A DNA stretch of 64,000 nucleotides from Escherichia phage dhaeg, in the sequence record MN850609.1; one strand, 5' to 3'. Positions 32,432 through 42,526 of this stretch are shown here, piece by piece; position 1 is the first letter of the stretch, and each line of letters starts with the position of its first letter. Below the pieces are notes generated by a model, which had not been told where the DNA came from, did no database searches, and saw only the letters and a program-made list of their open reading frames with translations. Both the position numbers and the translations under genes were made by a program.

Positions 32432-32591
32432 TATAAATAATAATATGGATTGGCTGATGTCATACAGAGCTTTGCTGGTGTATGGGGTTAGCTAATCCTA
32501 AGCGGTGGACTACAACTGAGAGACTTGCCGAAAGGAAGTGAAATTCAGAAGAACGTGTCCACCAATCTTTATCTCGAATCGAGAATTTAAA

Positions 32592-32840
32592 ATGAACAAA
32601 CATCTGAATCACGCTCTTGAACTGCAACGCAACGCTTGGAACAACGGTCACGAAAATTACGGCGCATCTATTGATGTTGAAGCCGAAGCACTGGAAATCC
32701 TGCGTTATTTCAAACATCTTAATCCTGCTCAGGCTGCTCTGGCTGCTGAACTGGAAGCAAAAGATGAACTGAAATATGCTAAGCCTTTGGCTTCAGCAGC
32801 TCGTAAAGCAGTACGTCATTTTATTATTACCCTGAAGTAA
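32592..32840 (+). CDS. rIII: rIII lysis-inhibition accessory protein
   Basis: 82 aa from MNKHLNH; HENYGASIDVEAEALEILRYFKH.NPAQ.AL.AELEAK.ELK.AKPLASAARKAVRHFI.TLK. Confidence 0.85.
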   Translation: MNKHLNHALELQRNAWNNGHENYGASIDVEAEALEILRYFKHLNPAQAALAAELEAKDELKYAKPLASAARKAVRHFIITLK

Positions 32841-33193
32841 AATCGAGGAGCCGTCGAACTGTCTGATTAATGATTTGCGAATCATTATAGTTTTAAGACC
32901 CCGGCAGTTTTACGGTGTACCTCTTGAATGTTATTTTATAGCGGCAAGTGCATGCTACCCCGAGGTGATGGCCAATCGGGAGTACGCCTCAAGGCCTATA
33001 TACCCATCAGTATATATCTTATCCTCGAGAAATCGAACCCGGAACCTTTAAGCTAACGGTGCGCAACAGATAAGAGCTATGATGACGAGGTTTATGGTTA
33101 TCCTGTCGTTAAATATCCGAAACCTATGTTCCCCTTGAGGGCTTGCGCAGGCAACGCCAATAAGTCCTGCATTCTAATTTAAGAGATTTAAAA
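32841..33193 (+). other. ORF-free ~350-nt region with local hairpins (candidate structured RNA, regulatory leader or decayed gene)
   Basis: no ORF of at least 60 aa on either strand in a genome that is otherwise coding almost everywhere; hairpins at 32868-32888 and 32997-33016. Confidence 0.25.
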
Positions 33194-33355
33194 ATGGCTA
33201 AGAAAGAAGTTAAAGTAGTTGACGGAACCTCTAAACGCGCTGGTTACAAGCGTGCGTCTAACAAGCGTATCAATCAGGTAGTTGATAAGCTTCAAGCTCG
33301 TGCTCGTGCAGTATTGCGTGCAGATGCTGCTTGCTTCGGTAAAGTTATTGCATAA
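33194..33355 (+). CDS. small basic protein (53 aa)
   Basis: MAKKEVKVVDG...KRAGYKRASNKR...; followed directly by a strong terminator. Confidence 0.4.
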   Translation: MAKKEVKVVDGTSKRAGYKRASNKRINQVVDKLQARARAVLRADAACFGKVIA

Positions 33356-33360
33356 GTTAT

Positions 33361-33390
33361 GGGACTCTTCGGAGTCCCATTTTTGTTTCT
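33361..33390 (+). terminator. intrinsic terminator
   Basis: gggactCTTCGGagtccc + TTTTTGTTT. Confidence 0.7.
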
Positions 33391-33476
33391 AAATCTTTAA
33401 AAAAGGGTATACATCTCCGGTAGGCATGATACTATAGACATGTACCAAATAATACGAAAACAAACCGGAGAATAAA

Positions 33477-33845
33477 ATGAAAATCAATCTTAACTCATAT
33501 ATCAAATGTAAAGACCACGACGGTTATAAAGCTATTGAAACTAAAGAGATGCAATGGCGCTTGTACAAAGAACAATTTGAATTTGTAGGTTGTATGACTC
33601 CTGAAGGTCCTTCCGATGACTTCTCTTGGAAAATTTTGGTAACAAACTTTTTTACTGGTGATACCTACGAACTGAAAACTATCATAACCGGTAAGATTCG
33701 TTGTAAGACCTATGAAGATGAAGAAACCGGTTATTCTGAAGATGTTACATGGTATCAAAATGGTCGTATAACTGCAGATAACTTGATCGAAAAAATGAAA
33801 GCCAAAGGTGAATTAAATTTAGATAATTGGATTAAAGTTGCATAA
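33477..33845 (+). CDS. hypothetical protein (122 aa)
   Basis: ATG after ggagaataaa SD; leader nearly identical to that of the next gene. Confidence 0.5.
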   Translation: MKINLNSYIKCKDHDGYKAIETKEMQWRLYKEQFEFVGCMTPEGPSDDFSWKILVTNFFTGDTYELKTIITGKIRCKTYEDEETGYSEDVTWYQNGRITADNLIEKMKAKGELNLDNWIKVA

Positions 33846-33848
33846 AAC

Positions 33849-33876
33849 GGTTTACTTTGGTACAGGTTGTGTTATT
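33849..33876 (+). promoter_or_regulatory. early promoter cassette with inverted repeat ggtacaggt/acctgtacc
   Basis: gtttac 33849-33854; tattat 33871-33876. Confidence 0.5.
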
Positions 33877-33919
33877 ATAGACCTGTACCAAATAATACGA
33901 AAACAAACTGGAGAATAAA

Positions 33920-34285
33920 ATGAACTACATCAACTTCGAACGTAAATATGTTTCTAACGGTATCGCTGGTTCTTCTGAAGTTATTTGCCTGTGGAAACAC
34001 AACAACGGCACAGTGTGCGAAATCGAACAGTGCATGACTCCTAACTACGTTTATATGCGCTTTGAAAATGGTATCACGGTTTCAATCACTATGGAAGGTT
34101 CTACTTTTAAAATCGCTTTAGACGATGATTTCCGTCAACGTGATTTAGGTACCCATCCTTGCTGGAACGGCGCTAATCGTAAGCTTCTGGTTAAAACTTG
34201 GATTCGTCATATCCTGAGCAACCGTGCTAAACCTGAACACCTGGAAGCAATCTTTGATGTAGTTCTGAATGAATTTGATATCTAA
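33920..34285 (+). CDS. hypothetical protein (121 aa)
   Basis: ATG after ggagaataaa SD. Confidence 0.5.
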   Translation: MNYINFERKYVSNGIAGSSEVICLWKHNNGTVCEIEQCMTPNYVYMRFENGITVSITMEGSTFKIALDDDFRQRDLGTHPCWNGANRKLLVKTWIRHILSNRAKPEHLEAIFDVVLNEFDI

Positions 34286-34326
34286 TCTTAAAAATGGAGG
34301 CTTCGGCCTCCTTTGAGGAAAATATT

Positions 34327-34614
34327 ATGTTTATGACCACTTATTTCGATACTCGTAAAAATTTCTGTGAAGTTGTTTTCTCTAAGGCAGGTAAAGATGT
34401 TCCTGCTGACAAACAGCCTACTCGTGAATCCATTAAGGCCTATGCTGATGTGGTTTGTCCAGTAGAATTCCGTACAGTCAATGGTCGTGACACCCTAGCA
34501 ATCACTAAGCTCAGCCATGATATTAACATCGACCCTAGCGCTGCCCGCGAAGTCAATACTTCTGACATCTACGGTGGTAATGTTAAATCACATGGATTTC
34601 AGATGAGGTTCTAA
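34327..34614 (+). CDS. hypothetical protein (95 aa)
   Basis: ATG at 34327 after gagga SD; the upstream part of the track ORF is a hairpin (ggaggCTTCGGcctcc). Confidence 0.45.
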   Translation: MFMTTYFDTRKNFCEVVFSKAGKDVPADKQPTRESIKAYADVVCPVEFRTVNGRDTLAITKLSHDINIDPSAAREVNTSDIYGGNVKSHGFQMRF

Positions 34615-34808
34615 TGCAACTATTCTTATCACAAACCGTCCAGTTAAAAGGTGTAGGTATTCCTGGAATGATTTCTAAGGTCTTGCCTGGTTTTAAATTA
34701 GGTAATGCTACTATTAAAGAAGCCTACACCGTCCTGTGGGTCGATGGAACTGAAGACGTTCGTATGGGTTCTGAATTGTCTGTAATCAAATGTTTGAAGC
34801 GAGGATAA
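34614..34808 (+). CDS. hypothetical protein (64 aa)
   Basis: TAATG-coupled ORF. Confidence 0.4.
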   Translation: MQLFLSQTVQLKGVGIPGMISKVLPGFKLGNATIKEAYTVLWVDGTEDVRMGSELSVIKCLKRG

Positions 34809-34809
34809 T

Positions 34810-35025
34810 ATGGTTAAGAAACTGATTCAGAAATTGTTAGGTACGGAAATGGTTGAAGTGACTTATCGTGTGACTGATGTTTCTCCTCATACGGCAGACC
34901 ATTTAGAACCTTATATCATGACAATTAAAATGCCTAAACATGACGGTGGCTTATCCATTGAAGACCGACTACCTGGTTATGGTCATTGGGCTGATGTGGA
35001 GATTATCAGTGTCAAAGATATTTAA
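34810..35025 (+). CDS. hypothetical small protein, tandem paralog 1
   Basis: 71 aa; LxKKLxxxEMVEVTYRV.D.SP ... RLP..G.W....IISVKD shared with next ORF. Confidence 0.55.
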   Translation: MVKKLIQKLLGTEMVEVTYRVTDVSPHTADHLEPYIMTIKMPKHDGGLSIEDRLPGYGHWADVEIISVKDI

Positions 35026-35034
35026 GGAACCTTC

Positions 35035-35247
35035 ATGATTAATAAATTATTTAAAAAGCTGTTTGGTTTGGAAATGGTTGAAGTGACTTATCGTGTTATT
35101 GATTTATCACCGCCATATGCTTGCGATGAAGATGCTATTAAAACTGTTGTTATGCGAAAAACATATCGCGGGCGGTCAATTAAAGAAAGATTACCGGACC
35201 ATGGCATGTGGTATGCAACCAAGATTATAAGTGTCAAAGATGTCTGA
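35035..35247 (+). CDS. hypothetical small protein, tandem paralog 2
   Basis: 70 aa; paralog of 34810..35025. Confidence 0.55.
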   Translation: MINKLFKKLFGLEMVEVTYRVIDLSPPYACDEDAIKTVVMRKTYRGRSIKERLPDHGMWYATKIISVKDV

Positions 35248-35698
35248 GTTAGAGATAAGAAGTAACTTTCCGTGGCCATCATGCGCATTAAGTAACTTTG
35301 CTAAATGGCCTTTCGTTATGGATGGTATCCAATTCGGTGGGCTCGAAGGATTCCTCCAAGGATGTAAGGTGAAAAATGTTGAACAGCAAAGACGTATATT
35401 TAGGATGTCCGGGTTGGACGCGCAAAAAGCTGGACGAGCTTATGCTAGAGCTCAGGACCGTGGCACGTTGTTCTGGCTTGGAACCCCGTTTTCAAGATAT
35501 TCCGAAGCATGGAAAGAGCTTTACGAAAGTGCGTATTTTGAAGCAGCGCTCCAGAACAAAGGATTTCGCGATGCGTTACAAGCCACTAAAGGTAAGGTTT
35601 TAAAGCATTCAATGGCAAGCCACCTAAAAGAATGTGATACAATACTAACTGAAAAAGAGTTTATCGACATCCTAAACAAATTGAGAGATTTATTATGA
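35231..35698 (+). CDS. NADAR/YbiA-like (DUF1768-like) domain protein
   Basis: 155 aa; SNF..WP...DG..F...E.F.Q..K ... R.I....G.....KAGRA pattern resembling E. coli YbiA-family proteins; not verified by search. Confidence 0.5.
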   Translation: MSKMSELEIRSNFPWPSCALSNFAKWPFVMDGIQFGGLEGFLQGCKVKNVEQQRRIFRMSGLDAQKAGRAYARAQDRGTLFWLGTPFSRYSEAWKELYESAYFEAALQNKGFRDALQATKGKVLKHSMASHLKECDTILTEKEFIDILNKLRDLL

Positions 35699-36333
35699 AA
35701 CCAGTTATCTTAACAGATATCGATGGAGTATGTTTAAGTTGGCAGTCCGGCTTGCCTTATTTCGCACAGAAATATAATTTGCCTTTAGAACATATTTTGA
35801 ATATGATTCAGGACGAACGTTTCTTATCTCCAGGCGAACTGTTTAATTGTGACGACGAATTAGGCGCACGTTTAATCGAGAAGTATAACCAGTCAGATTT
35901 TATTCGTTATCTGTCCCCTTACATGGACGCATTAAAACACATCAACAAGCTCAAAAAAGACTTCGATTTTGTAGCCGTGACTGCGCTAGGCGACTCAATT
36001 GATGCCCTGCTGAATAGACAATTCAATTTGAATGCTTTGTTCCCTGGCGCATTCAAGGAGATTCTGATGTGTGGTCATTCAGAATCAAAAGAAGACCTGT
36101 TCATAAGAGCTAAAAATACGTACGGCAAACGTATTAAGTTTTATGTCGATGATTTGGCTCACCACTGTGATGCTGCATCTAATATTCTCATGGATATCCA
36201 AGTTTATTGGTTAGCCCGTGGTGAACGCGACTTTAAACCTAATTTAGCCGTAAAGGTTAATTCATGGGACGATATCGCAGCTATCGAATCCCTTCGTAAT
36301 AATGCAGCAGTTGAATGGATTGCTCGAGGTTAA
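35695..36333 (+). CDS. HAD-superfamily phosphatase / nucleotidase-like
   Basis: 212 aa; N-terminal ILTDIDGV (HAD motif I DxDGx) and C-terminal YVDD; ATGA-coupled to NADAR gene. Confidence 0.55.
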   Translation: MKPVILTDIDGVCLSWQSGLPYFAQKYNLPLEHILNMIQDERFLSPGELFNCDDELGARLIEKYNQSDFIRYLSPYMDALKHINKLKKDFDFVAVTALGDSIDALLNRQFNLNALFPGAFKEILMCGHSESKEDLFIRAKNTYGKRIKFYVDDLAHHCDAASNILMDIQVYWLARGERDFKPNLAVKVNSWDDIAAIESLRNNAAVEWIARG

Positions 36334-36334
36334 T

Positions 36335-36607
36335 ATGTTTGTTGTTCATACAATTTCGGACCATGGCCCTACCACTACAATGGATTATGGTCACGTCAAT
36401 CAGTTCTTTCGTCATCAACCTTTATTTAGGATTGCCAAAGAAAATCCTTTATTTAAAGAATGTGTGGAGCAAGGGTTTATTTACATCAGCAAATACGATG
36501 TAAATATGTTTTCCACAGGCAATAATAGAATGATTACCTACAATAAACGCCTTGACTTGCTGTTAGAAGAAGTGGCGTATAATAGAAATCAATCCGGAAG
36601 AAGGTAA
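36335..36607 (+). CDS. hypothetical protein (90 aa)
   Basis: TAATATG overlap with HAD gene stop. Confidence 0.4.
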   Translation: MFVVHTISDHGPTTTMDYGHVNQFFRHQPLFRIAKENPLFKECVEQGFIYISKYDVNMFSTGNNRMITYNKRLDLLLEEVAYNRNQSGRR

Positions 36608-36610
36608 ATT

Positions 36611-38116
36611 ATGATTTTAGATATTTTGAACGAAATTGCTGCTATCGATTCTACTAAAGCTAAAGAAGCTATTATTGCTCGTGAAAAGGATAACGAGCTT
36701 CTGAAACGTGTTTATCATATGGCTTATACCCGTCGTCTGAACTACGGTATTAAAAAGTGGCCAGAACCTGGATTTACGTCTCAATCCTTTGGTATGATTA
36801 CACTTGAAGACCTTCTTGATTTCGCTGAGTTCACACTAGCAACCCGTAAGATTACAGGTAATGCTGCTATTGAAGAACTTGCTCAAATTATTGCTGATGC
36901 CAAGGGTCCTGACGCTGAGGTATTACGTCGCGTAATGATGCGTGACCTTGAATGTGGTGCATCGATTTCTATTGCCAACAAGGTTTGGAAAGGTTTAATC
37001 CCTGAACAACCTCAAATGTTGGCTAGTTCTTATGACGAAGCTCTAATTAAGAAAAATATTAAATGGCCAGCGTTCGCTCAATTAAAAGCTGACGGTGCTC
37101 GTTGTTTTGCTGAAGTTCGTAACGATGGGGTAACATTCCTTACTCGTGGTGGTAATGAATATCAAGGGCTTACTAAGCTTGCAGCCGAACTTATTAAAAT
37201 GACTGAAGAAGCTCGTCAGCGCCATCCTAATGGTGTTATGATTGACGGCGAATTAGTTTACCATACACCTAAAGTAGAACCTAAAGCATCTAATGATTTG
37301 TTTAGTATGTTTGATGAGGAACTTCCTGAATTAAGTAAGGCTAAGGAATTCCAAACCGTAGCTGATCGTTCTACGTCAAATGGCTTGGCTAATAAAGCCC
37401 TCCAAGGAACTATTACTCCGGCTGAAGCTGATGGTATGGTATTACAGGCATGGGACTTTGTTCCACTGGATGAAGTTTATTCTGAAGGCAAAATTAAAGG
37501 TCAAAAATACGATGTTCGTTTAGCGGCATTAGTACAAATGGCTGAAGGTTTTACACGTGTCGAGCCTATCGAAACGCAATGGGTTAATAATCTTGACGAA
37601 GCTAAAGTCGTTTATAAGAAATATGTCGACCAAGGTCTGGAAGGTATTATCCTTAAGAACATGGACTCCTACTGGGAAAACCGCCGTTCTAAGAATCTTA
37701 TCAAGTTCAAAGAAGTAATTGATATCGCTTTAGAAGTGGTGGGTTATTATGAACACTCGAAGGACCCTAACAAACTTGGTGGTGTCGAGCTAGTATCGCG
37801 GTGTCGTCGAATTACATCCGACTGTGGTTCAGGCTTTAAAGATACTACCCATAAGAAAGATAAATCAGGTAAAAAGGTATTGATTCCATTGGAAGACCGT
37901 CCTGATTTAGACCGTGAACTTCTTATGAAACAAGCTCGTGAAGGTAAGTTGATTGGACGTATTGCTGACTGTGAATGTAATGGTTGGGTTCATTCTAAAG
38001 GACGTACAGATACTGTAGGTATTTTCCTTCCAATTATTAAAGGTTGGCGTTTCGATAAAACAGAAGCTGATACATTTGAAGATGTATTTGGTGATTGGTC
38101 TCAAACTGGACTATAA
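36611..38116 (+). CDS. 30: ATP-dependent DNA ligase
   Basis: 501 aa; MIL.ILNEIA.I.STK.K.AI....KDNELLKRVY, adenylation lysine block AQLKADGARCFAEVR, DGELVY, LEGIILKN match T4 DNA ligase. Confidence 0.97.
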   Translation: MILDILNEIAAIDSTKAKEAIIAREKDNELLKRVYHMAYTRRLNYGIKKWPEPGFTSQSFGMITLEDLLDFAEFTLATRKITGNAAIEELAQIIADAKGPDAEVLRRVMMRDLECGASISIANKVWKGLIPEQPQMLASSYDEALIKKNIKWPAFAQLKADGARCFAEVRNDGVTFLTRGGNEYQGLTKLAAELIKMTEEARQRHPNGVMIDGELVYHTPKVEPKASNDLFSMFDEELPELSKAKEFQTVADRSTSNGLANKALQGTITPAEADGMVLQAWDFVPLDEVYSEGKIKGQKYDVRLAALVQMAEGFTRVEPIETQWVNNLDEAKVVYKKYVDQGLEGIILKNMDSYWENRRSKNLIKFKEVIDIALEVVGYYEHSKDPNKLGGVELVSRCRRITSDCGSGFKDTTHKKDKSGKKVLIPLEDRPDLDRELLMKQAREGKLIGRIADCECNGWVHSKGRTDTVGIFLPIIKGWRFDKTEADTFEDVFGDWSQTGL

Positions 38117-38117
38117 T

Positions 38118-38288
38118 ATGAAAGCTTATTTAGAAACAATTGTTGTAACAAATACAAATACCACCGCGGCCTCTCAAATCATCCTAGAGTTTGAGGATGA
38201 AATAGCTTTTGCCGATTTTAAAGACGTGTTTGATGGCTATGAAAAAGGCCCGACATTCGAAGTATATCGTACGTTGCTACCACTTTAA
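38118..38288 (+). CDS. hypothetical small protein (56 aa)
   Basis: ORF from MKAYLE; followed by terminator. Confidence 0.35.
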   Translation: MKAYLETIVVTNTNTTAASQIILEFEDEIAFADFKDVFDGYEKGPTFEVYRTLLPL

Positions 38289-38305
38289 GGCCTTCGGGCC
38301 TTTTA
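38288..38305 (+). terminator. intrinsic terminator
   Basis: aaggccTTCGggcctttt. Confidence 0.65.
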
Positions 38306-38338
38306 TGGCATAAATACGGTTATTAAAGAGGAATTATT

Positions 38339-40399
38339 ATGACCGAACAATTGAATGAGGTGTTTGAGTCCGAAGGCACCCTGCCTACTGTAAACTTAAA
38401 CCCAAAACTTAAAGTACCGCAGATTTGGAAGATTGGCGACGCCGAATCCCAATTAGTGGCCCGTATGGTATCTTATGCCTCTGAAGGCGATGCTATTAAA
38501 CAGGTTAAATTAGGTGATAAATACGCCCATGTTATCCTTATGAGCCTTTCAGCTAAAGGTTCTCCGGCCGAACTTAAAGGTGGCTTAGGCCCTACTCCTA
38601 TTGATGCTATTAATACCATTTTCGACGTAGTATTCGAACAAGTTAAAAAGCTTCGTATGGATGCTGTGATGTTCCGTTTTCCAACCAAGAAAATGAAAGG
38701 GCAAGGACCTATTGTCCAACGGATTATCCAACGTTTGGTAGCACAGAAAACCGGTGGACGTTTTAAAGTAGTTCCGGCTATGTACCAATTTACCGGTAAA
38801 CATACTTATATCCTAGTAGTTCGTAAACAAGCTGATATCGAAGATATCAAAGGTATGCCTGGAATTAATGCCGAATTGTATACTAAGGTAGATTCTGATG
38901 TTGGTGAAGTTTATATTTCTAAAAAAGAAGGCCTGCAGGTTACTAAAGAAACTGCTATTGCCGGCAGTATTGCTAAAGTTGAAGAACGTCGCACTGATAA
39001 AATGGTTATAACCAAGACTAAGATTTCTCGTCGCGCTATTGCAGCAAGCCAGTCTTTAGAATCCTATCGTAATGAAAGTGAACTGTTTAAGAAATATGAA
39101 GCCACTGCCGCTGATTTTAATAAACCGGCAACAGCTCCATTAATCCCTGATGCCCAAGAAATGGTTACTAATAACAATTCTCCTGCGGCTAAAAATAAGG
39201 TTGCTAATATAGTAGCTGAAGGCACTGCTGAAGAGTTGCATTACGATTATAAAATGTTTCCTCTTCACGGTATAGGTGAAATCCAAGAGAAAATTAAAGA
39301 GAGAATCCTTACGGCCATCAAAAACGAACCTTTGACATCTGTTAAAGCTCTAGAAAAATATGCCTCTGTTATTAATACCGTTTTCGAAGAATACAAAGGT
39401 GAATGGCTGGCTAAGCATAACAAAACTCGTAAAGGTCAGCCTGATGACGTCTGGAATGAATTAACCGAGTCCAAGTGGAAAGCAGCCAAGACCAAGTTCA
39501 TTAAAAAACGTGTGTATAGTTTTGCTGGTGTAGGTGGTGGTATTATGGTTGATATTACTTTAGGTCATAGTGCAGATAAATACACCCCTTCTCAAAAACG
39601 TGGTATTCGTGAATATTGTGGCTCCGGATATGGCGATATCAATAACCTTCTTTTAGGACGATATAATCCTCAGAACTATGAGGTTATGAGCGAAAAAGAT
39701 ATCGAATCTGCAGTTAATAATTTGGATTCTGCTTTTGAAAACGGTGATAGATTACCTGAAGGCATTACTGTTTATCGTGCACAGAGTATGACGTGGGCCA
39801 TATATAATGCTTTAGTCAAAAATAAAGTATTCTATTTTAGAAACTTTGTATCCACTTCACTGACTCCTATTATTTTCGGCCGTTTTGGTGTTACTCATGC
39901 GGGTGTGGGTCTTTTAGAGCCTGAAGTTAGAGCCGAACTTACCGTAGATAAAAATGATGAAGGTTATACTAAGGTCCAAGGTTCCGGCGACAAGTTGGTT
40001 AAAGTTGGTTGGGCTATTGATGGGGCTTCTAAGGTTAACGTAGTATTCCCTGGGCAACTTGGCATTGCTACTGAAGCTGAAATCATTCTCCCGCGTGGAC
40101 TAATGGTAAAAATTAATAAAATAACAGATGCATCCAATAATGACGGTATAATATCCAACAATACAAAACTCATTCAAGCTGAAGTTATGACAACAGATGA
40201 GCTTCAAGAGTCAGTGGTATATGATGGTGATGTACTAATGGAAACTGGTGAATTGGTTGTATACCAAGATGACTTCGATACTTCCGAAAGCCCTGTATCT
40301 TTTGATTCATTTGTTAAATCTACACGGTTTGACGTACTGCCTCTTTTGGCTTCATGCATAGACCTCTATGACATCCCAGAAAAATTCATCCAAGGGTAA
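38339..40399 (+). CDS. alt: Alt-like ADP-ribosyltransferase, paralog 1
   Basis: 686 aa; N-terminal packaging region like T4 Alt (..LP.TNL.PK.K.PQI, MDAVMFRFPTKKMKG); C-terminal R-S-ExE ART signature (VYRAQ, FVSTSL, EAEIILPRG). Confidence 0.85.
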   Translation: MTEQLNEVFESEGTLPTVNLNPKLKVPQIWKIGDAESQLVARMVSYASEGDAIKQVKLGDKYAHVILMSLSAKGSPAELKGGLGPTPIDAINTIFDVVFEQVKKLRMDAVMFRFPTKKMKGQGPIVQRIIQRLVAQKTGGRFKVVPAMYQFTGKHTYILVVRKQADIEDIKGMPGINAELYTKVDSDVGEVYISKKEGLQVTKETAIAGSIAKVEERRTDKMVITKTKISRRAIAASQSLESYRNESELFKKYEATAADFNKPATAPLIPDAQEMVTNNNSPAAKNKVANIVAEGTAEELHYDYKMFPLHGIGEIQEKIKERILTAIKNEPLTSVKALEKYASVINTVFEEYKGEWLAKHNKTRKGQPDDVWNELTESKWKAAKTKFIKKRVYSFAGVGGGIMVDITLGHSADKYTPSQKRGIREYCGSGYGDINNLLLGRYNPQNYEVMSEKDIESAVNNLDSAFENGDRLPEGITVYRAQSMTWAIYNALVKNKVFYFRNFVSTSLTPIIFGRFGVTHAGVGLLEPEVRAELTVDKNDEGYTKVQGSGDKLVKVGWAIDGASKVNVVFPGQLGIATEAEIILPRGLMVKINKITDASNNDGIISNNTKLIQAEVMTTDELQESVVYDGDVLMETGELVVYQDDFDTSESPVSFDSFVKSTRFDVLPLLASCIDLYDIPEKFIQG

Positions 40400-40402
40400 A
40401 TA

Positions 40403-42526
40403 ATGGAAAATTTAAACGAAGTTTTTGATAGTGATTCCGCTAAAAACTATCCAGTAACAAATCTTAAACCAGGCTCCGGTATCCCACAGATTTTCTCTAT
40501 TCAAGCACCAGGTAACGATAACCTGGTTGCTCGTATGGTATCTTATGCGTCTCAAGGAGACGCTATTAAAATGGTTAAGCCCGGCGACAAATACGTTCAT
40601 GTTATTTTAATGAGTTTGTCGAGCAAGGGTGCTCCAGCTGAACTAAAAGGTGGCCTTGGTTCCGACCCACTTGGTACATTGAATACTATTTTCGATACGA
40701 TATATGAACAAGTAAATAAACTTAAAATGGATGCGGTTTTGTTCCGTTTCCCTACCAAGAAAATGAAAGGTAAGGGCCCTACTGTTCAGCGTGTATTAGC
40801 TCGTTTGGCGATGGCACGTACCGGTGGTAAGTTTAAAGTTGTCGATAGCATGTTCCAGTTTAGTGGTAAACATACATACGTTCTTTTAGCACGTCGTGGC
40901 ACTAATATCGAAGATATCAAGGGTATGCCTGAAATTGATGCGGACCTTTATACCAAGGTTGAGTCTAAAGTCGGTGAAGTTTATGTTTCTAAGAAAACCG
41001 GCCAGGCCGTAAGTAAGGTCGAAGCCGTAGCAGCATCTATTGCACAGGTTGAAGAGAAACGTACCGATAAGGCTGTTATCTCTCGTACTAAAATTTCCCG
41101 TCGTATGGCTGCAGCAGCGCAGTATTCTACTGCCGAACCTGAAACTTTATCACCTAAAGAATTGCAGGTTTATAACGAGTTTGAAGCTTCCGTCCCTGTT
41201 CACTCGGCCGAAGGCCCTGAGAACGAAGGTATTGAACAAATTAGCCAGAACTTTAAAAAAGGTGCTATTACTAAAATGCGTCAGGCCTCTCAGTTTAAAT
41301 CTAAGAGTGAGGACCTTGCCAACTTTAGATACACCATTGCTCTCACACACGCTTTAATGACTGATAGTAAATTTAAACTAAATTATGCTAATAGAGATAA
41401 ACAAGGGTTTGAAATTTACTCTAATAATATGGCATTTTTTAATACGGAAGTCGATAGACTTTTAAGCGGCCTTTCTCAAATCAATACTACCAATAGTCTG
41501 GATATTATTAAGAGAATTGTTAATAACCTGAGTGCCCGTTTTCAGGGGTCTCCTTCAGAGAAAGCATCCCGAATTGCTTTCGCTATGGAAGCCGTTTATA
41601 AACTGATTAACGATTCTATTAGCGATGCATATGCTTATTCAGGCGAGCTCATTAAACCTAAGGGCTTGACCAAAGACGAAAGTAATGCCATTATTGAATA
41701 TTGTGCGGCTGAATATGCTCCTATGAACTTATTCCTTTTAGGTAAACCTGAATCCGAAAACAATACAACAGCTATTAAATTGATTAAGGATTTAGACTCA
41801 GCATTTACCAAGGGTATTAAACTTCCTAAGGGTACTATTTTGTATCGTGGTCAGGATTTACCATACAAAATTCTGCGCCATAATATTGATAACAAAACCT
41901 TTTACTTTAAGAACTTTGTATCCGCTTCATTAAAGCCTAATATCTTTGGTGAATTTGGTAAAAATTATATGGCCCTCGACAACCAAGCAGTTTTTGTTGG
42001 TGATGAAGGTTCTTTATCCTCCGCCGATGAGTTGTTTAAATTGGCCAGTGGTAGTTCATCTGACGTAGGTGAAGTTGATGATGAAGAGGTAGAATGGGAA
42101 GAAGACGAGTTTGGTAATCCAATTGCACCTGAAGGCCCTGCAGACAGGATTGCTGAAATTGGTATGGTTATTCGAGGTGCTGAAGCAGTTAAAGTTATCG
42201 CTCCTGGTGACCTTACAGAATATGCCGAAGAAGCGGAAATTATCCTTCCGCGCGGATTATTGTTGAAGGTTGATAAAGTAGCAGCTTTTGCTATGAATGA
42301 TAGGGTATCTCACAAATACCTTATGGAAGCTACAGTGACATCTCCTTCAGAACTCAGTGAGTCCGTTTACGATGGTGACCATCTGATGGAAACCGGCGAA
42401 GTTAAATTGATGAATGGGTTTAAAGAATTCCTAGTTTCAGAATCTGTTTCAGAAAGTAACGAGGCTATGGAAATCCTTGCTGCATCTTTGGACATCTCTT
42501 CTTTACCAAATAAATTCAAAATGTAG
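40403..42526 (+). CDS. Alt-like ADP-ribosyltransferase, paralog 2
   Basis: 707 aa; first ~230 aa closely similar to paralog 1, divergent middle; ART signature (LYRGQ, FVSASL, EEAEIILPRG). Confidence 0.85.
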   Translation: MENLNEVFDSDSAKNYPVTNLKPGSGIPQIFSIQAPGNDNLVARMVSYASQGDAIKMVKPGDKYVHVILMSLSSKGAPAELKGGLGSDPLGTLNTIFDTIYEQVNKLKMDAVLFRFPTKKMKGKGPTVQRVLARLAMARTGGKFKVVDSMFQFSGKHTYVLLARRGTNIEDIKGMPEIDADLYTKVESKVGEVYVSKKTGQAVSKVEAVAASIAQVEEKRTDKAVISRTKISRRMAAAAQYSTAEPETLSPKELQVYNEFEASVPVHSAEGPENEGIEQISQNFKKGAITKMRQASQFKSKSEDLANFRYTIALTHALMTDSKFKLNYANRDKQGFEIYSNNMAFFNTEVDRLLSGLSQINTTNSLDIIKRIVNNLSARFQGSPSEKASRIAFAMEAVYKLINDSISDAYAYSGELIKPKGLTKDESNAIIEYCAAEYAPMNLFLLGKPESENNTTAIKLIKDLDSAFTKGIKLPKGTILYRGQDLPYKILRHNIDNKTFYFKNFVSASLKPNIFGEFGKNYMALDNQAVFVGDEGSLSSADELFKLASGSSSDVGEVDDEEVEWEEDEFGNPIAPEGPADRIAEIGMVIRGAEAVKVIAPGDLTEYAEEAEIILPRGLLLKVDKVAAFAMNDRVSHKYLMEATVTSPSELSESVYDGDHLMETGEVKLMNGFKEFLVSESVSESNEAMEILAASLDISSLPNKFKM

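What the first reader, a model, noticed from the sequence alone, without database searches (positions are those of the whole stretch)
35231..36333. NADAR/YbiA-like protein translationally coupled to a HAD phosphatase in the rIII-ligase island
The sequence shows a 155-aa ORF with the SNF..WP / DG..F...E.F.Q..K / KAGRA motif pattern I associate with the NADAR (YbiA, DUF1768) fold. It overlaps by ATGA with a 212-aa ORF that starts ILTDIDGV, a HAD-superfamily DxDGx catalytic motif. From established knowledge, NADAR-family enzymes include hydrolases that remove ADP-ribose from guanine bases modified by DarT toxins, and N-glycosidases acting on riboflavin intermediates; HAD enzymes are phosphatases or nucleotidases. 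By inference, this phage pair could reverse DNA ADP-ribosylation by host DarTG-type defence, or process nucleotide or ADP-ribose derivatives. I cannot tell from sequence alone whether T4 itself carries the same pair in its 30.x region.
Basis: partly seen in the sequence, partly recalled or inferred. Interest (0 to 1): 0.7.

Follow-up and report, generated by a model that had tools for sequence, protein, structure and literature searches.

The report
Known anti-DarT enzyme AdfN plus phosphatase
The two overlapping genes are this T4-like phage's copies of T4 genes 30.3 and 30.2: the first is AdfN, an enzyme already shown to strip ADP-ribose off phage DNA to defeat the bacterial DarTG1 defence, and the second is an uncharacterised nucleotidase-like phosphatase that does not appear to work with it.

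Summary
The window is a Dhakavirus (JS98-like, T4-type) genome. ORF 35240-35698 is gene 30.3 and ORF 35695-36333 is gene 30.2, overlapping by ATGA.

gp30.3 is 86% identical to T4 gp30.3, which is AdfN. AdfN is a NADAR-fold DNA ADP-ribosylglycohydrolase, shown by experiment in 2024-2025 to remove DarT1's guanine ADP-ribosylation and to be needed for T4 and T2 growth on DarTG1 hosts. The window copy is full length and keeps E36, K43 and the family-specific H123. Its model matches only the three solved NADAR structures.

gp30.2 is a C1-capped HAD phosphatase with all four catalytic motifs. It is closest to the 5'(3')-deoxyribonucleotidase (NT5C) branch.

The proposed functional pairing is not supported:
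- ATGA overlaps are generic here (16 in the window).
- The two genes abut only in close T-even relatives and lie 54-64 kb apart in other T4-like genomes.
- gp30.2 instead stays just upstream of DNA ligase in 67 of 67 T4-like loci.
- In published T4 transposon sequencing, 30.3 insertions are lost on DarTG1 (log2FC -7.25) while 30.2 insertions are unaffected (-0.12).

T4 does carry the same pair. Interest is low.

The parts
35240..35698 (+). adfN (gene 30.3): 152-aa phage-type NADAR DNA ADP-ribosylglycohydrolase. Codons: E36 at 35345-35347, K43 at 35366-35368, H123 at 35606-35608. The C-terminal helix (residues 138-151) is present.
   Evidence: Pfam PF08010 at E 7.7e-66. 86% identical to T4 gp30.3 over 152/152 residues. 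E36, K43 and H123 are invariant in 41 homologues. Model pLDDT 94.2. The top PDB matches are 2b3w, 8bau and 8bat.
35695..36333 (+). Gene 30.2: 212-aa C1-capped HAD phosphatase, NT5C-like. D8 at 35716-35718, D10 at 35722-35724, T96, K132, D152-D153.
35695..35698 (+). ATGA overlap: the 30.2 start codon overlaps the adfN stop codon.
   Evidence: Sequence. T4 and JS98 have the same 4-nt overlap. It is one of 16 such junctions in the window.
35240..35247 (+). ATGTCTGA overlap: the adfN start lies inside the end of the upstream 30.4b ORF.
   Evidence: T4 and JS98 have the same 8-nt 30.4/30.3 overlap.
34810..35247 (+). Two tandem 30.4 paralogues (34810-35025 and 35035-35247) directly upstream of adfN.
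   Evidence: 54% identical to each other. T4, JS98, CLB_P2 and the IMG/VR relatives have a single copy.
36335..38116 (+). Downstream context: gene 30.1 (DUF3045, 36335-36607) and the ATP-dependent DNA ligase gene 30 (36611-38116), the conserved neighbour of 30.2.
   Evidence: Pfam PF11243 at E 6e-24. Synteny with T4 and JS98. The ligase lies downstream of 30.2 in 67 of 67 T4-like loci.

Best explanation
These are two independent early genes of the T4-type 30.x cluster, packed end to end as almost all genes in this region are.

(1) adfN (30.3). Its product is a minimal NADAR-fold hydrolase. When the host DarT1 toxin ADP-ribosylates guanine in replicating phage DNA, AdfN cleaves the base-ribose bond and releases ADP-ribose, so replication can continue. 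The mechanism was shown for the T4 orthologue; for this phage it is inferred from 86% identity, intact catalytic residues and full length.

(2) Gene 30.2. Its product is a Mg2+-dependent HAD phosphomonoesterase with a helical C1 cap, which implies a small-molecule substrate. By fold and remote homology it is most like the 5'(3')-deoxyribonucleotidases, so it most likely dephosphorylates a (deoxy)nucleoside monophosphate. This step is inferred, and the substrate is unknown. It is dispensable under the laboratory conditions tested so far. It is not part of the anti-DarTG1 mechanism.
For: adfN:
- Pfam PF08010 at E 7.7e-66.
- 86% identical to T4 gp30.3 with no gaps.
- E36 and K43, whose mutation weakens T4 AdfN, are invariant, as is H123, which marks phage NADARs.
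- The C-terminal helix that RB69 lacks is present.
- The fold search returns only the NADAR structures 2b3w, 8bau and 8bat.
- 17 of 40 family members also match Pfam NADAR PF08719.
- Published work: purified T4 AdfN removes ADP-ribose from DarT1-modified DNA; T4 and T2 adfN deletions cannot plaque on DarTG1; ectopic adfN rescues RB69. In T4 Tn-seq on DarTG1, 30.3 has log2FC -7.25 and adjusted p 0.

Gene 30.2:
- D8, D10, G11, K132, D152 and D153 are invariant and T96 nearly so.
- Model pLDDT 95.6, with a helical insertion at residues 16-86.
- The only sequence-level PDB hit is the mitochondrial deoxyribonucleotidase 2jao, with W16 aligned to its Phe six residues after the second Asp.
- Distant homologues reach 37 and 32.7 bits on Pfam NT5C, against a cut-off of 24.8.

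Independence of the two genes:
- Of 80 loci holding a 30.3 homologue, 30.2 abuts it in 15 complete-flank loci (14 close relatives, L003-L014 and L042, plus L016 at 12 bp). It lies 0.7-1.2 kb away in 7 and is absent within 5 kb in 57. One further locus, L015, ends within 30.3 itself, so its downstream side cannot be scored.
- In the same genomes the two genes can be 54-64 kb apart.
- 30.2 lies upstream of the ligase in 67 of 67 T4-like loci.
- 30.3 homologues have no conserved neighbour on either side.
- T4 30.2 insertions are neutral on DarTG1 (log2FC -0.12, p 0.61, 71 sites).
Against: - No experiment has been done on this phage's alleles.
- AdfN of T4 works fully only during T-even infection. 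It fails as an antitoxin in uninfected E. coli and only weakly rescues T5 and Bas25, so an unidentified T-even factor is postulated. The mechanism is therefore incomplete.
- The window gp30.2 itself scores below the Pfam NT5C threshold (12.9 against 24.8 bits), and no substrate has been tested.
- A nucleotidase role is hard to reconcile with T4's heavy reuse of dNMPs.
- Tn-seq neutrality could hide redundancy.
Confidence: 0.85

Rival explanations
1. AdfN and gp30.2 form a functional two-enzyme module. Either gp30.2 is the unidentified T-even factor that potentiates AdfN, or it processes a product downstream of ADP-ribose release.
For: The genes overlap by ATGA here and in T4 and JS98. T4 AdfN is reported to need an unknown T-even factor for full activity. 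RB69, in which ectopic AdfN works, belongs to the group that carries 30.2.
Against: T4 30.2 transposon insertions are not depleted on DarTG1 (log2FC -0.12, p 0.61), whereas 30.3 insertions are lost. Adjacency holds only in close relatives. The genes are 54-64 kb apart in 44RR2.8t-type genomes, and 30.2 is absent near most 30.3 homologues. ATGA overlaps are generic. ADP-ribose is a pyrophosphate diester, not a HAD phosphomonoester substrate (established enzymology).
Confidence: 0.05
2. gp30.2 acts on nucleic-acid ends, for example as a DNA 3'-phosphatase that prepares nicks for the adjacent DNA ligase, rather than on free nucleotides.
Against: The model has a large helical C1 cap over the active site (residues 16-86). 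In HAD enzymes such a cap goes with small substrates, whereas Pnkp is capless (established HAD classification). Synteny with a core gene in a strongly collinear genome family is weak evidence of shared function.
Confidence: 0.08
3. The window gp30.3 is a YbiA-like metabolic N-glycosidase acting on riboflavin intermediates, rather than a DNA de-ADP-ribosylase.
For: There is a weak hit to TIGR02464, the riboflavin-intermediate N-glycosidase model (E 0.05, 13.9 bits against a cut-off of 73.7). YbiA is the top structural match.
Against: The protein belongs to the phage NADAR family, marked by His in place of the YbiA Glu (H123 invariant). The T4 orthologue, 86% identical, is active on G-ADPr DNA and is needed against DarTG1.
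Confidence: 0.02

Closest known systems
T4 AdfN (gp30.3), anti-DarT factor NADAR (Johannesman et al. 2025, PMC11825919; Pfam PF08010)
   Same: 86% identical over the full 152 residues. Same E36, K43 and H123. Same C-terminal helix. Same genomic slot between 30.4 and 30.2, with the same 8-nt and 4-nt overlaps.
   Different: 22 substitutions. The host phage is a Dhakavirus rather than a Tequatrovirus. Two 30.4 paralogues lie upstream instead of one. This allele has not been tested.
DarG1 (DarT1-associated NADAR antitoxin; Geobacter lovleyi 8bat)
   Same: NADAR core fold, and the same reaction, removal of ADP-ribose from guanine.
   Different: DarG1 has an N-terminal extension and an Asp where the phage enzyme has His. 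It is encoded next to its toxin and works in uninfected cells, whereas T4 AdfN does not.
E. coli YbiA (2b3w) and Pfam NADAR PF08719
   Same: Best structural match (Foldseek E 5.7e-05, TM 0.68). Shared SNF...E.F.Q..K motif.
   Different: Only 18% identical. The window protein does not match PF08719 at E up to 1. YbiA has Glu in the last strand and a housekeeping, riboflavin-linked role.
T4 gp30.2 (NP_049815, hypothetical protein; PHROG 420)
   Same: 75% identical over the first 194 residues, with the same HAD motifs and the same position between 30.3 and 30.1.
   Different: The T4 protein is 278 aa, with a C-terminal tail of about 85 residues that the 212-aa window protein lacks. Tails vary widely across the family.
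5'(3')-deoxyribonucleotidases of the NT5C family (mdN 2jao, cdN 6g2n, 3bwv; Pfam PF06941)
   Different: The window protein scores 12.9 bits against a 24.8 cut-off and is about 15% identical. No substrate is known.

Membership tests
Phage NADAR / AdfN (gp30.3, Pfam PF08010) | Significant full-length match to the family profile | tested here: met
   220.6 bits against a cut-off of 36; profile positions 2-138 of 138.
Phage NADAR / AdfN (gp30.3, Pfam PF08010) | NADAR core fold | tested here: met
   Model pLDDT 94.2. The only PDB matches with probability of at least 0.97 are YbiA, PnNADAR and GlNADAR.
Phage NADAR / AdfN (gp30.3, Pfam PF08010) | Catalytic Glu and Lys (E36 and K43 of T4 AdfN) | tested here: met
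   Both are present and invariant in 41 homologues. Their role was shown by mutation in T4.
Phage NADAR / AdfN (gp30.3, Pfam PF08010) | His in the last strand, in place of the Glu (YbiA) or Asp (DarG1) of other NADAR families | tested here: met
   H123 is invariant. The feature is defined in PMC11125620 and PMC12945103.
Phage NADAR / AdfN (gp30.3, Pfam PF08010) | Intact C-terminal helix (its loss in RB69 causes DarTG1 sensitivity) | tested here: met
   152 aa, aligned with T4 to the last residue. Helix predicted at residues 138-151.
Phage NADAR / AdfN (gp30.3, Pfam PF08010) | Hydrolysis of guanine-linked ADP-ribose on DNA, and protection from DarTG1 | not testable with these tools
   Shown only for the T4 and T2 orthologues.
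Pfam NADAR (PF08719, DUF1768) | Match to the NADAR profile | tested here: not met
   The window protein has no hit at E up to 1, although 17 of 40 gp30.3-family members do (best 1.5e-07). The link to the superfamily rests on fold and on intermediate sequences.
HAD superfamily phosphatases | Motifs I (DxD), II (T/S), III (K) and IV (DD) | tested here: met
   D8, D10, K132, D152 and D153 are invariant; T96 is conserved in at least 90% of sequences.
HAD superfamily phosphatases | Rossmann-like HAD core with a cap insertion after motif I (C1 type) | tested here: met
HAD superfamily phosphatases | Mg2+-dependent phosphoryl transfer | not testable with these tools
NT5C 5'(3')-deoxyribonucleotidase family (PF06941) | Profile match above the gathering score | tested here: not met
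   The window protein scores 12.9 bits against 24.8. Distant gp30.2 homologues from L150 and L155 score 37 and 32.7 bits over the whole profile, so the relationship holds only through intermediates.
NT5C 5'(3')-deoxyribonucleotidase family (PF06941) | Nucleotide-binding cap with a base-stacking aromatic residue after motif I | tested here: inconclusive
   The invariant W16 aligns with the Phe of DGVLADF in 2jao. No ligand modelling was done.
Functionally coupled NADAR-HAD gene pair | Adjacency conserved across diverged genomes | tested here: not met
   The genes abut only in close relatives. They are absent within 5 kb of each other in 57 of 80 loci, and 54-64 kb apart in several complete T4-like genomes.
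Functionally coupled NADAR-HAD gene pair | Both genes needed for the same phenotype | tested here: not met
   Published T4 Tn-seq on DarTG1: 30.3 log2FC -7.25; 30.2 log2FC -0.12, p 0.61.

The most novel reading that the evidence does not exclude
AdfN of T-even phages is reported to need an unidentified phage factor for full activity, and a neighbour in this cluster could be that factor.

gp30.2 is formally not excluded, because redundancy could mask it in Tn-seq.

The small upstream gene 30.4 is the more suggestive candidate. Its T4 insertions are depleted specifically on DarTG1 (log2FC -1.79, adjusted p 0.014; not depleted in M9). It is translationally coupled to adfN, and it is duplicated in this window. 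The simpler reading is a polar effect of the insertions on adfN.
Probability: 0.07. Interest if true: 0.55.

Novelty: already known. Interest (0 to 1): 0.15.

Why it matters

What remains open:
- the substrate and role of gp30.2, a phosphatase kept next to DNA ligase across all T4-like phages examined;
- the identity of the phage factor that AdfN needs.

Neither question becomes directly testable from this window beyond what T4 genetics already offers.

Tried and rejected
- Single-sequence searches of gp30.3 and gp30.2 against PDB sequences gave only sub-threshold hits: YbiA at E 0.8 and mdN at E 0.19. Structure prediction was needed.
- NCBIfam gave nothing useful.
- PHROGs places both proteins in families of unknown function.
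- A literature search for 'gp30.2' found no paper.
- The AlphaFold-database fold library was unavailable, so no closer annotated relative of gp30.2 could be sought.
- The promoter and terminator scan of 32500-40600 found no more sites than shuffled sequence gives, so transcription units could not be defined.
- A conserved neighbour of 30.3 was sought by clustering the flanking ORFs of 74 loci. None was found outside the close T-even group.
- The alternate-frame ORF 30.3' was examined and rejected as a conserved gene.
- The idea that HAD chemistry could process free ADP-ribose was rejected on enzymological grounds: ADP-ribose is a pyrophosphate diester, not a phosphomonoester.

Full report
**What is there.** The window is a T4-type myovirus of the genus Dhakavirus. 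The 2.1-kb stretch around the finding is 95-96% identical to JS98, JS10, MN04 and CLB_P2. The local gene order is rIII, 30.9 to 30.1, DNA ligase (30), alt.1, alt, all on the + strand.

The first ORF is gene 30.3. ORF listing gives a GTG start at 35231 (155 aa). The ATG at 35240 gives 152 aa and reproduces the T4 N-terminus, so I take 35240-35698 as the gene. The second ORF, 35695-36333 (212 aa), is gene 30.2, and its ATG overlaps the 30.3 stop as ATGA.

**gp30.3 is AdfN.**
- The protein matches Pfam PF08010 (Phage_30_3) at E 7.7e-66.
- It is 86% identical to T4 gp30.3 over all 152 residues, without gaps.
- In an alignment of 41 homologues down to 35% identity, E36, K43 and H123 are invariant.
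- An AlphaFold2 model (pLDDT 94.2) has E. coli YbiA (2b3w), Phytophthora NADAR with ADP-ribose (8bau) and Geobacter NADAR (8bat) as its only meaningful PDB matches.
- The window protein does not itself match Pfam NADAR PF08719, but 17 of 40 family members do.

**Published work on T4 gp30.3.**
- T4 gp30.3 was renamed anti-DarT factor NADAR, AdfN.
- Purified protein removes ADP-ribose from DarT1-modified DNA.
- E36A and K43A variants lose most activity.
- T4 and T2 adfN deletions cannot plaque on DarTG1.
- RB69 is sensitive because a frameshift removes the last 15 residues (PMC11825919).
- An independent biochemical study showed guanine-specific activity and named the His that distinguishes phage NADARs (PMC11125620). 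A 2026 paper lists phage NADARs as one of four NADAR families.
- T4 transposon sequencing found 30.3 insertions lost on DarTG1 (log2FC -7.25, adjusted p 0).

The window allele is full length and keeps every residue that these studies mark as important. The same function is therefore a safe inference, although it is untested for this phage.

**gp30.2 is a HAD phosphatase of the deoxyribonucleotidase type.** No Pfam or NCBIfam model reaches threshold, and PHROG 420 is a family of unknown function.
- In 38 homologues, D8, D10, G11, K132, D152 and D153 are invariant and T96 nearly so. These are HAD motifs I to IV.
- The model (pLDDT 95.6) is a Rossmann-like core with a helical cap inserted at residues 16-86.
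- A family profile finds only the mitochondrial deoxyribonucleotidase in PDB (E 0.066). That alignment places the invariant W16 on the Phe that follows the catalytic DxDGV.
- Distant gp30.2 homologues from marine viral contigs (HMM E 1e-23 to 1e-28) pass the Pfam NT5C gathering score (37 and 32.7 bits against 24.8).

I therefore place the family on the NT5C-like branch through intermediate sequences, and I note that the window protein itself fails that membership test. A capped HAD enzyme points to a small substrate, most likely a nucleoside monophosphate. This last step is inference.

**Are the two a functional pair? Four lines of evidence say no.**
1. The overlap is generic. The window has 16 ATGA junctions between ORFs of at least 50 aa. 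All junctions from 30.6 to alt.1 lie within -8 to +9 nt.
2. Linkage is confined to one lineage. Among 80 viral-contig loci with a gp30.3 homologue, 30.2 abuts it in 15 (14 close relatives, L003-L014 and L042, plus L016 at 12 bp), is 0.7-1.2 kb away in 7, and is absent within 5 kb in 57. One more, L015, ends inside 30.3, so its downstream side cannot be scored. In complete genomes that carry both genes, such as Aeromonas phage 44RR2.8t, they are 54-64 kb apart.
3. gp30.2 keeps a different neighbour. It lies 0.6-2.2 kb upstream of the DNA ligase gene in 67 of 67 T4-like loci, whereas 30.3 is nearby in only 34. Homologues of 30.3 have no conserved neighbour on either side, which fits the published description of AdfN as an orphan.
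4. In the T4 Tn-seq data, 30.2 insertions (71 TA sites) are neutral on DarTG1 (log2FC -0.12, p 0.61), in M9 (-0.10), and on K-12 generally.

**What is left open.** T4 AdfN does not protect uninfected E. coli from DarT1 and only weakly rescues non-T-even phages. The authors therefore postulate an unknown T-even factor. gp30.2 is a poor candidate, given the Tn-seq result.

Insertions in the upstream gene 30.4 are depleted specifically on DarTG1 (log2FC -1.79, adjusted p 0.014) and not in M9. Gene 30.4 overlaps the adfN start by 8 nt, so polarity is the simplest explanation. The window nevertheless carries two tandem 30.4 paralogues, where the relatives examined carry one.

**Verdict.** The NADAR and anti-DarT inference is correct but already published. 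The HAD assignment is correct at fold level. The pairing hypothesis is not supported.

Noticed in passing
window 34810-35025 and 35035-35247: Two tandem paralogues of gene 30.4 (71 and 70 aa, 54% identical) lie directly upstream of adfN. T4, JS98, CLB_P2 and the IMG/VR close relatives have one copy. The second copy's stop overlaps the adfN start by 8 nt.
   Followed up: partly
T4 gene 30.4 (L001 6759-6965, minus strand); window equivalent 34810-35247: In published T4 Tn-seq, 30.4 insertions are depleted on the DarTG1 host (log2FC -1.79, adjusted p 0.014) but not in M9. This could be a polar effect on adfN or a real helper role. The paper does not discuss it.
   Followed up: partly
window 35695-38116; loci L083-L149: gp30.2 is always just upstream of the DNA ligase gene, on the same strand, in 67 of 67 T4-like loci. 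This holds even where 30.3 and 30.1 are absent or elsewhere.
   Followed up: partly
window 35376-35603 (+), frame +1 inside adfN: A 75-aa alternate-frame ORF corresponds to the annotated T4 gene 30.3'. It is 58% identical to the T4 version, against 86% for the main frame. It is shortened in JS98 and not open in distant homologues, so it is probably not a real gene.
   Followed up: yes
L001 5475-6311 (T4 30.2) compared with window 35695-36333: T4 gp30.2 has a C-terminal tail of about 85 residues, rich in Pro, Asn and Tyr, that the window protein lacks. C-terminal tails of this family vary from none to more than 100 residues.
   Followed up: no
L150-L161 (marine metagenome viral contigs): Distant gp30.2-like proteins have motif IV as IEDK instead of DD. 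They lie in contexts with no ligase, 30.1 or 30.3 homologue detected.
   Followed up: no
L024, L027, L039, L055, L059, L060, L068, L079: gp30.3/AdfN homologues at about 40% identity occur on viral contigs of 250-424 kb. The phage-type NADAR is therefore also present in much larger, jumbo-sized phage genomes.
   Followed up: no
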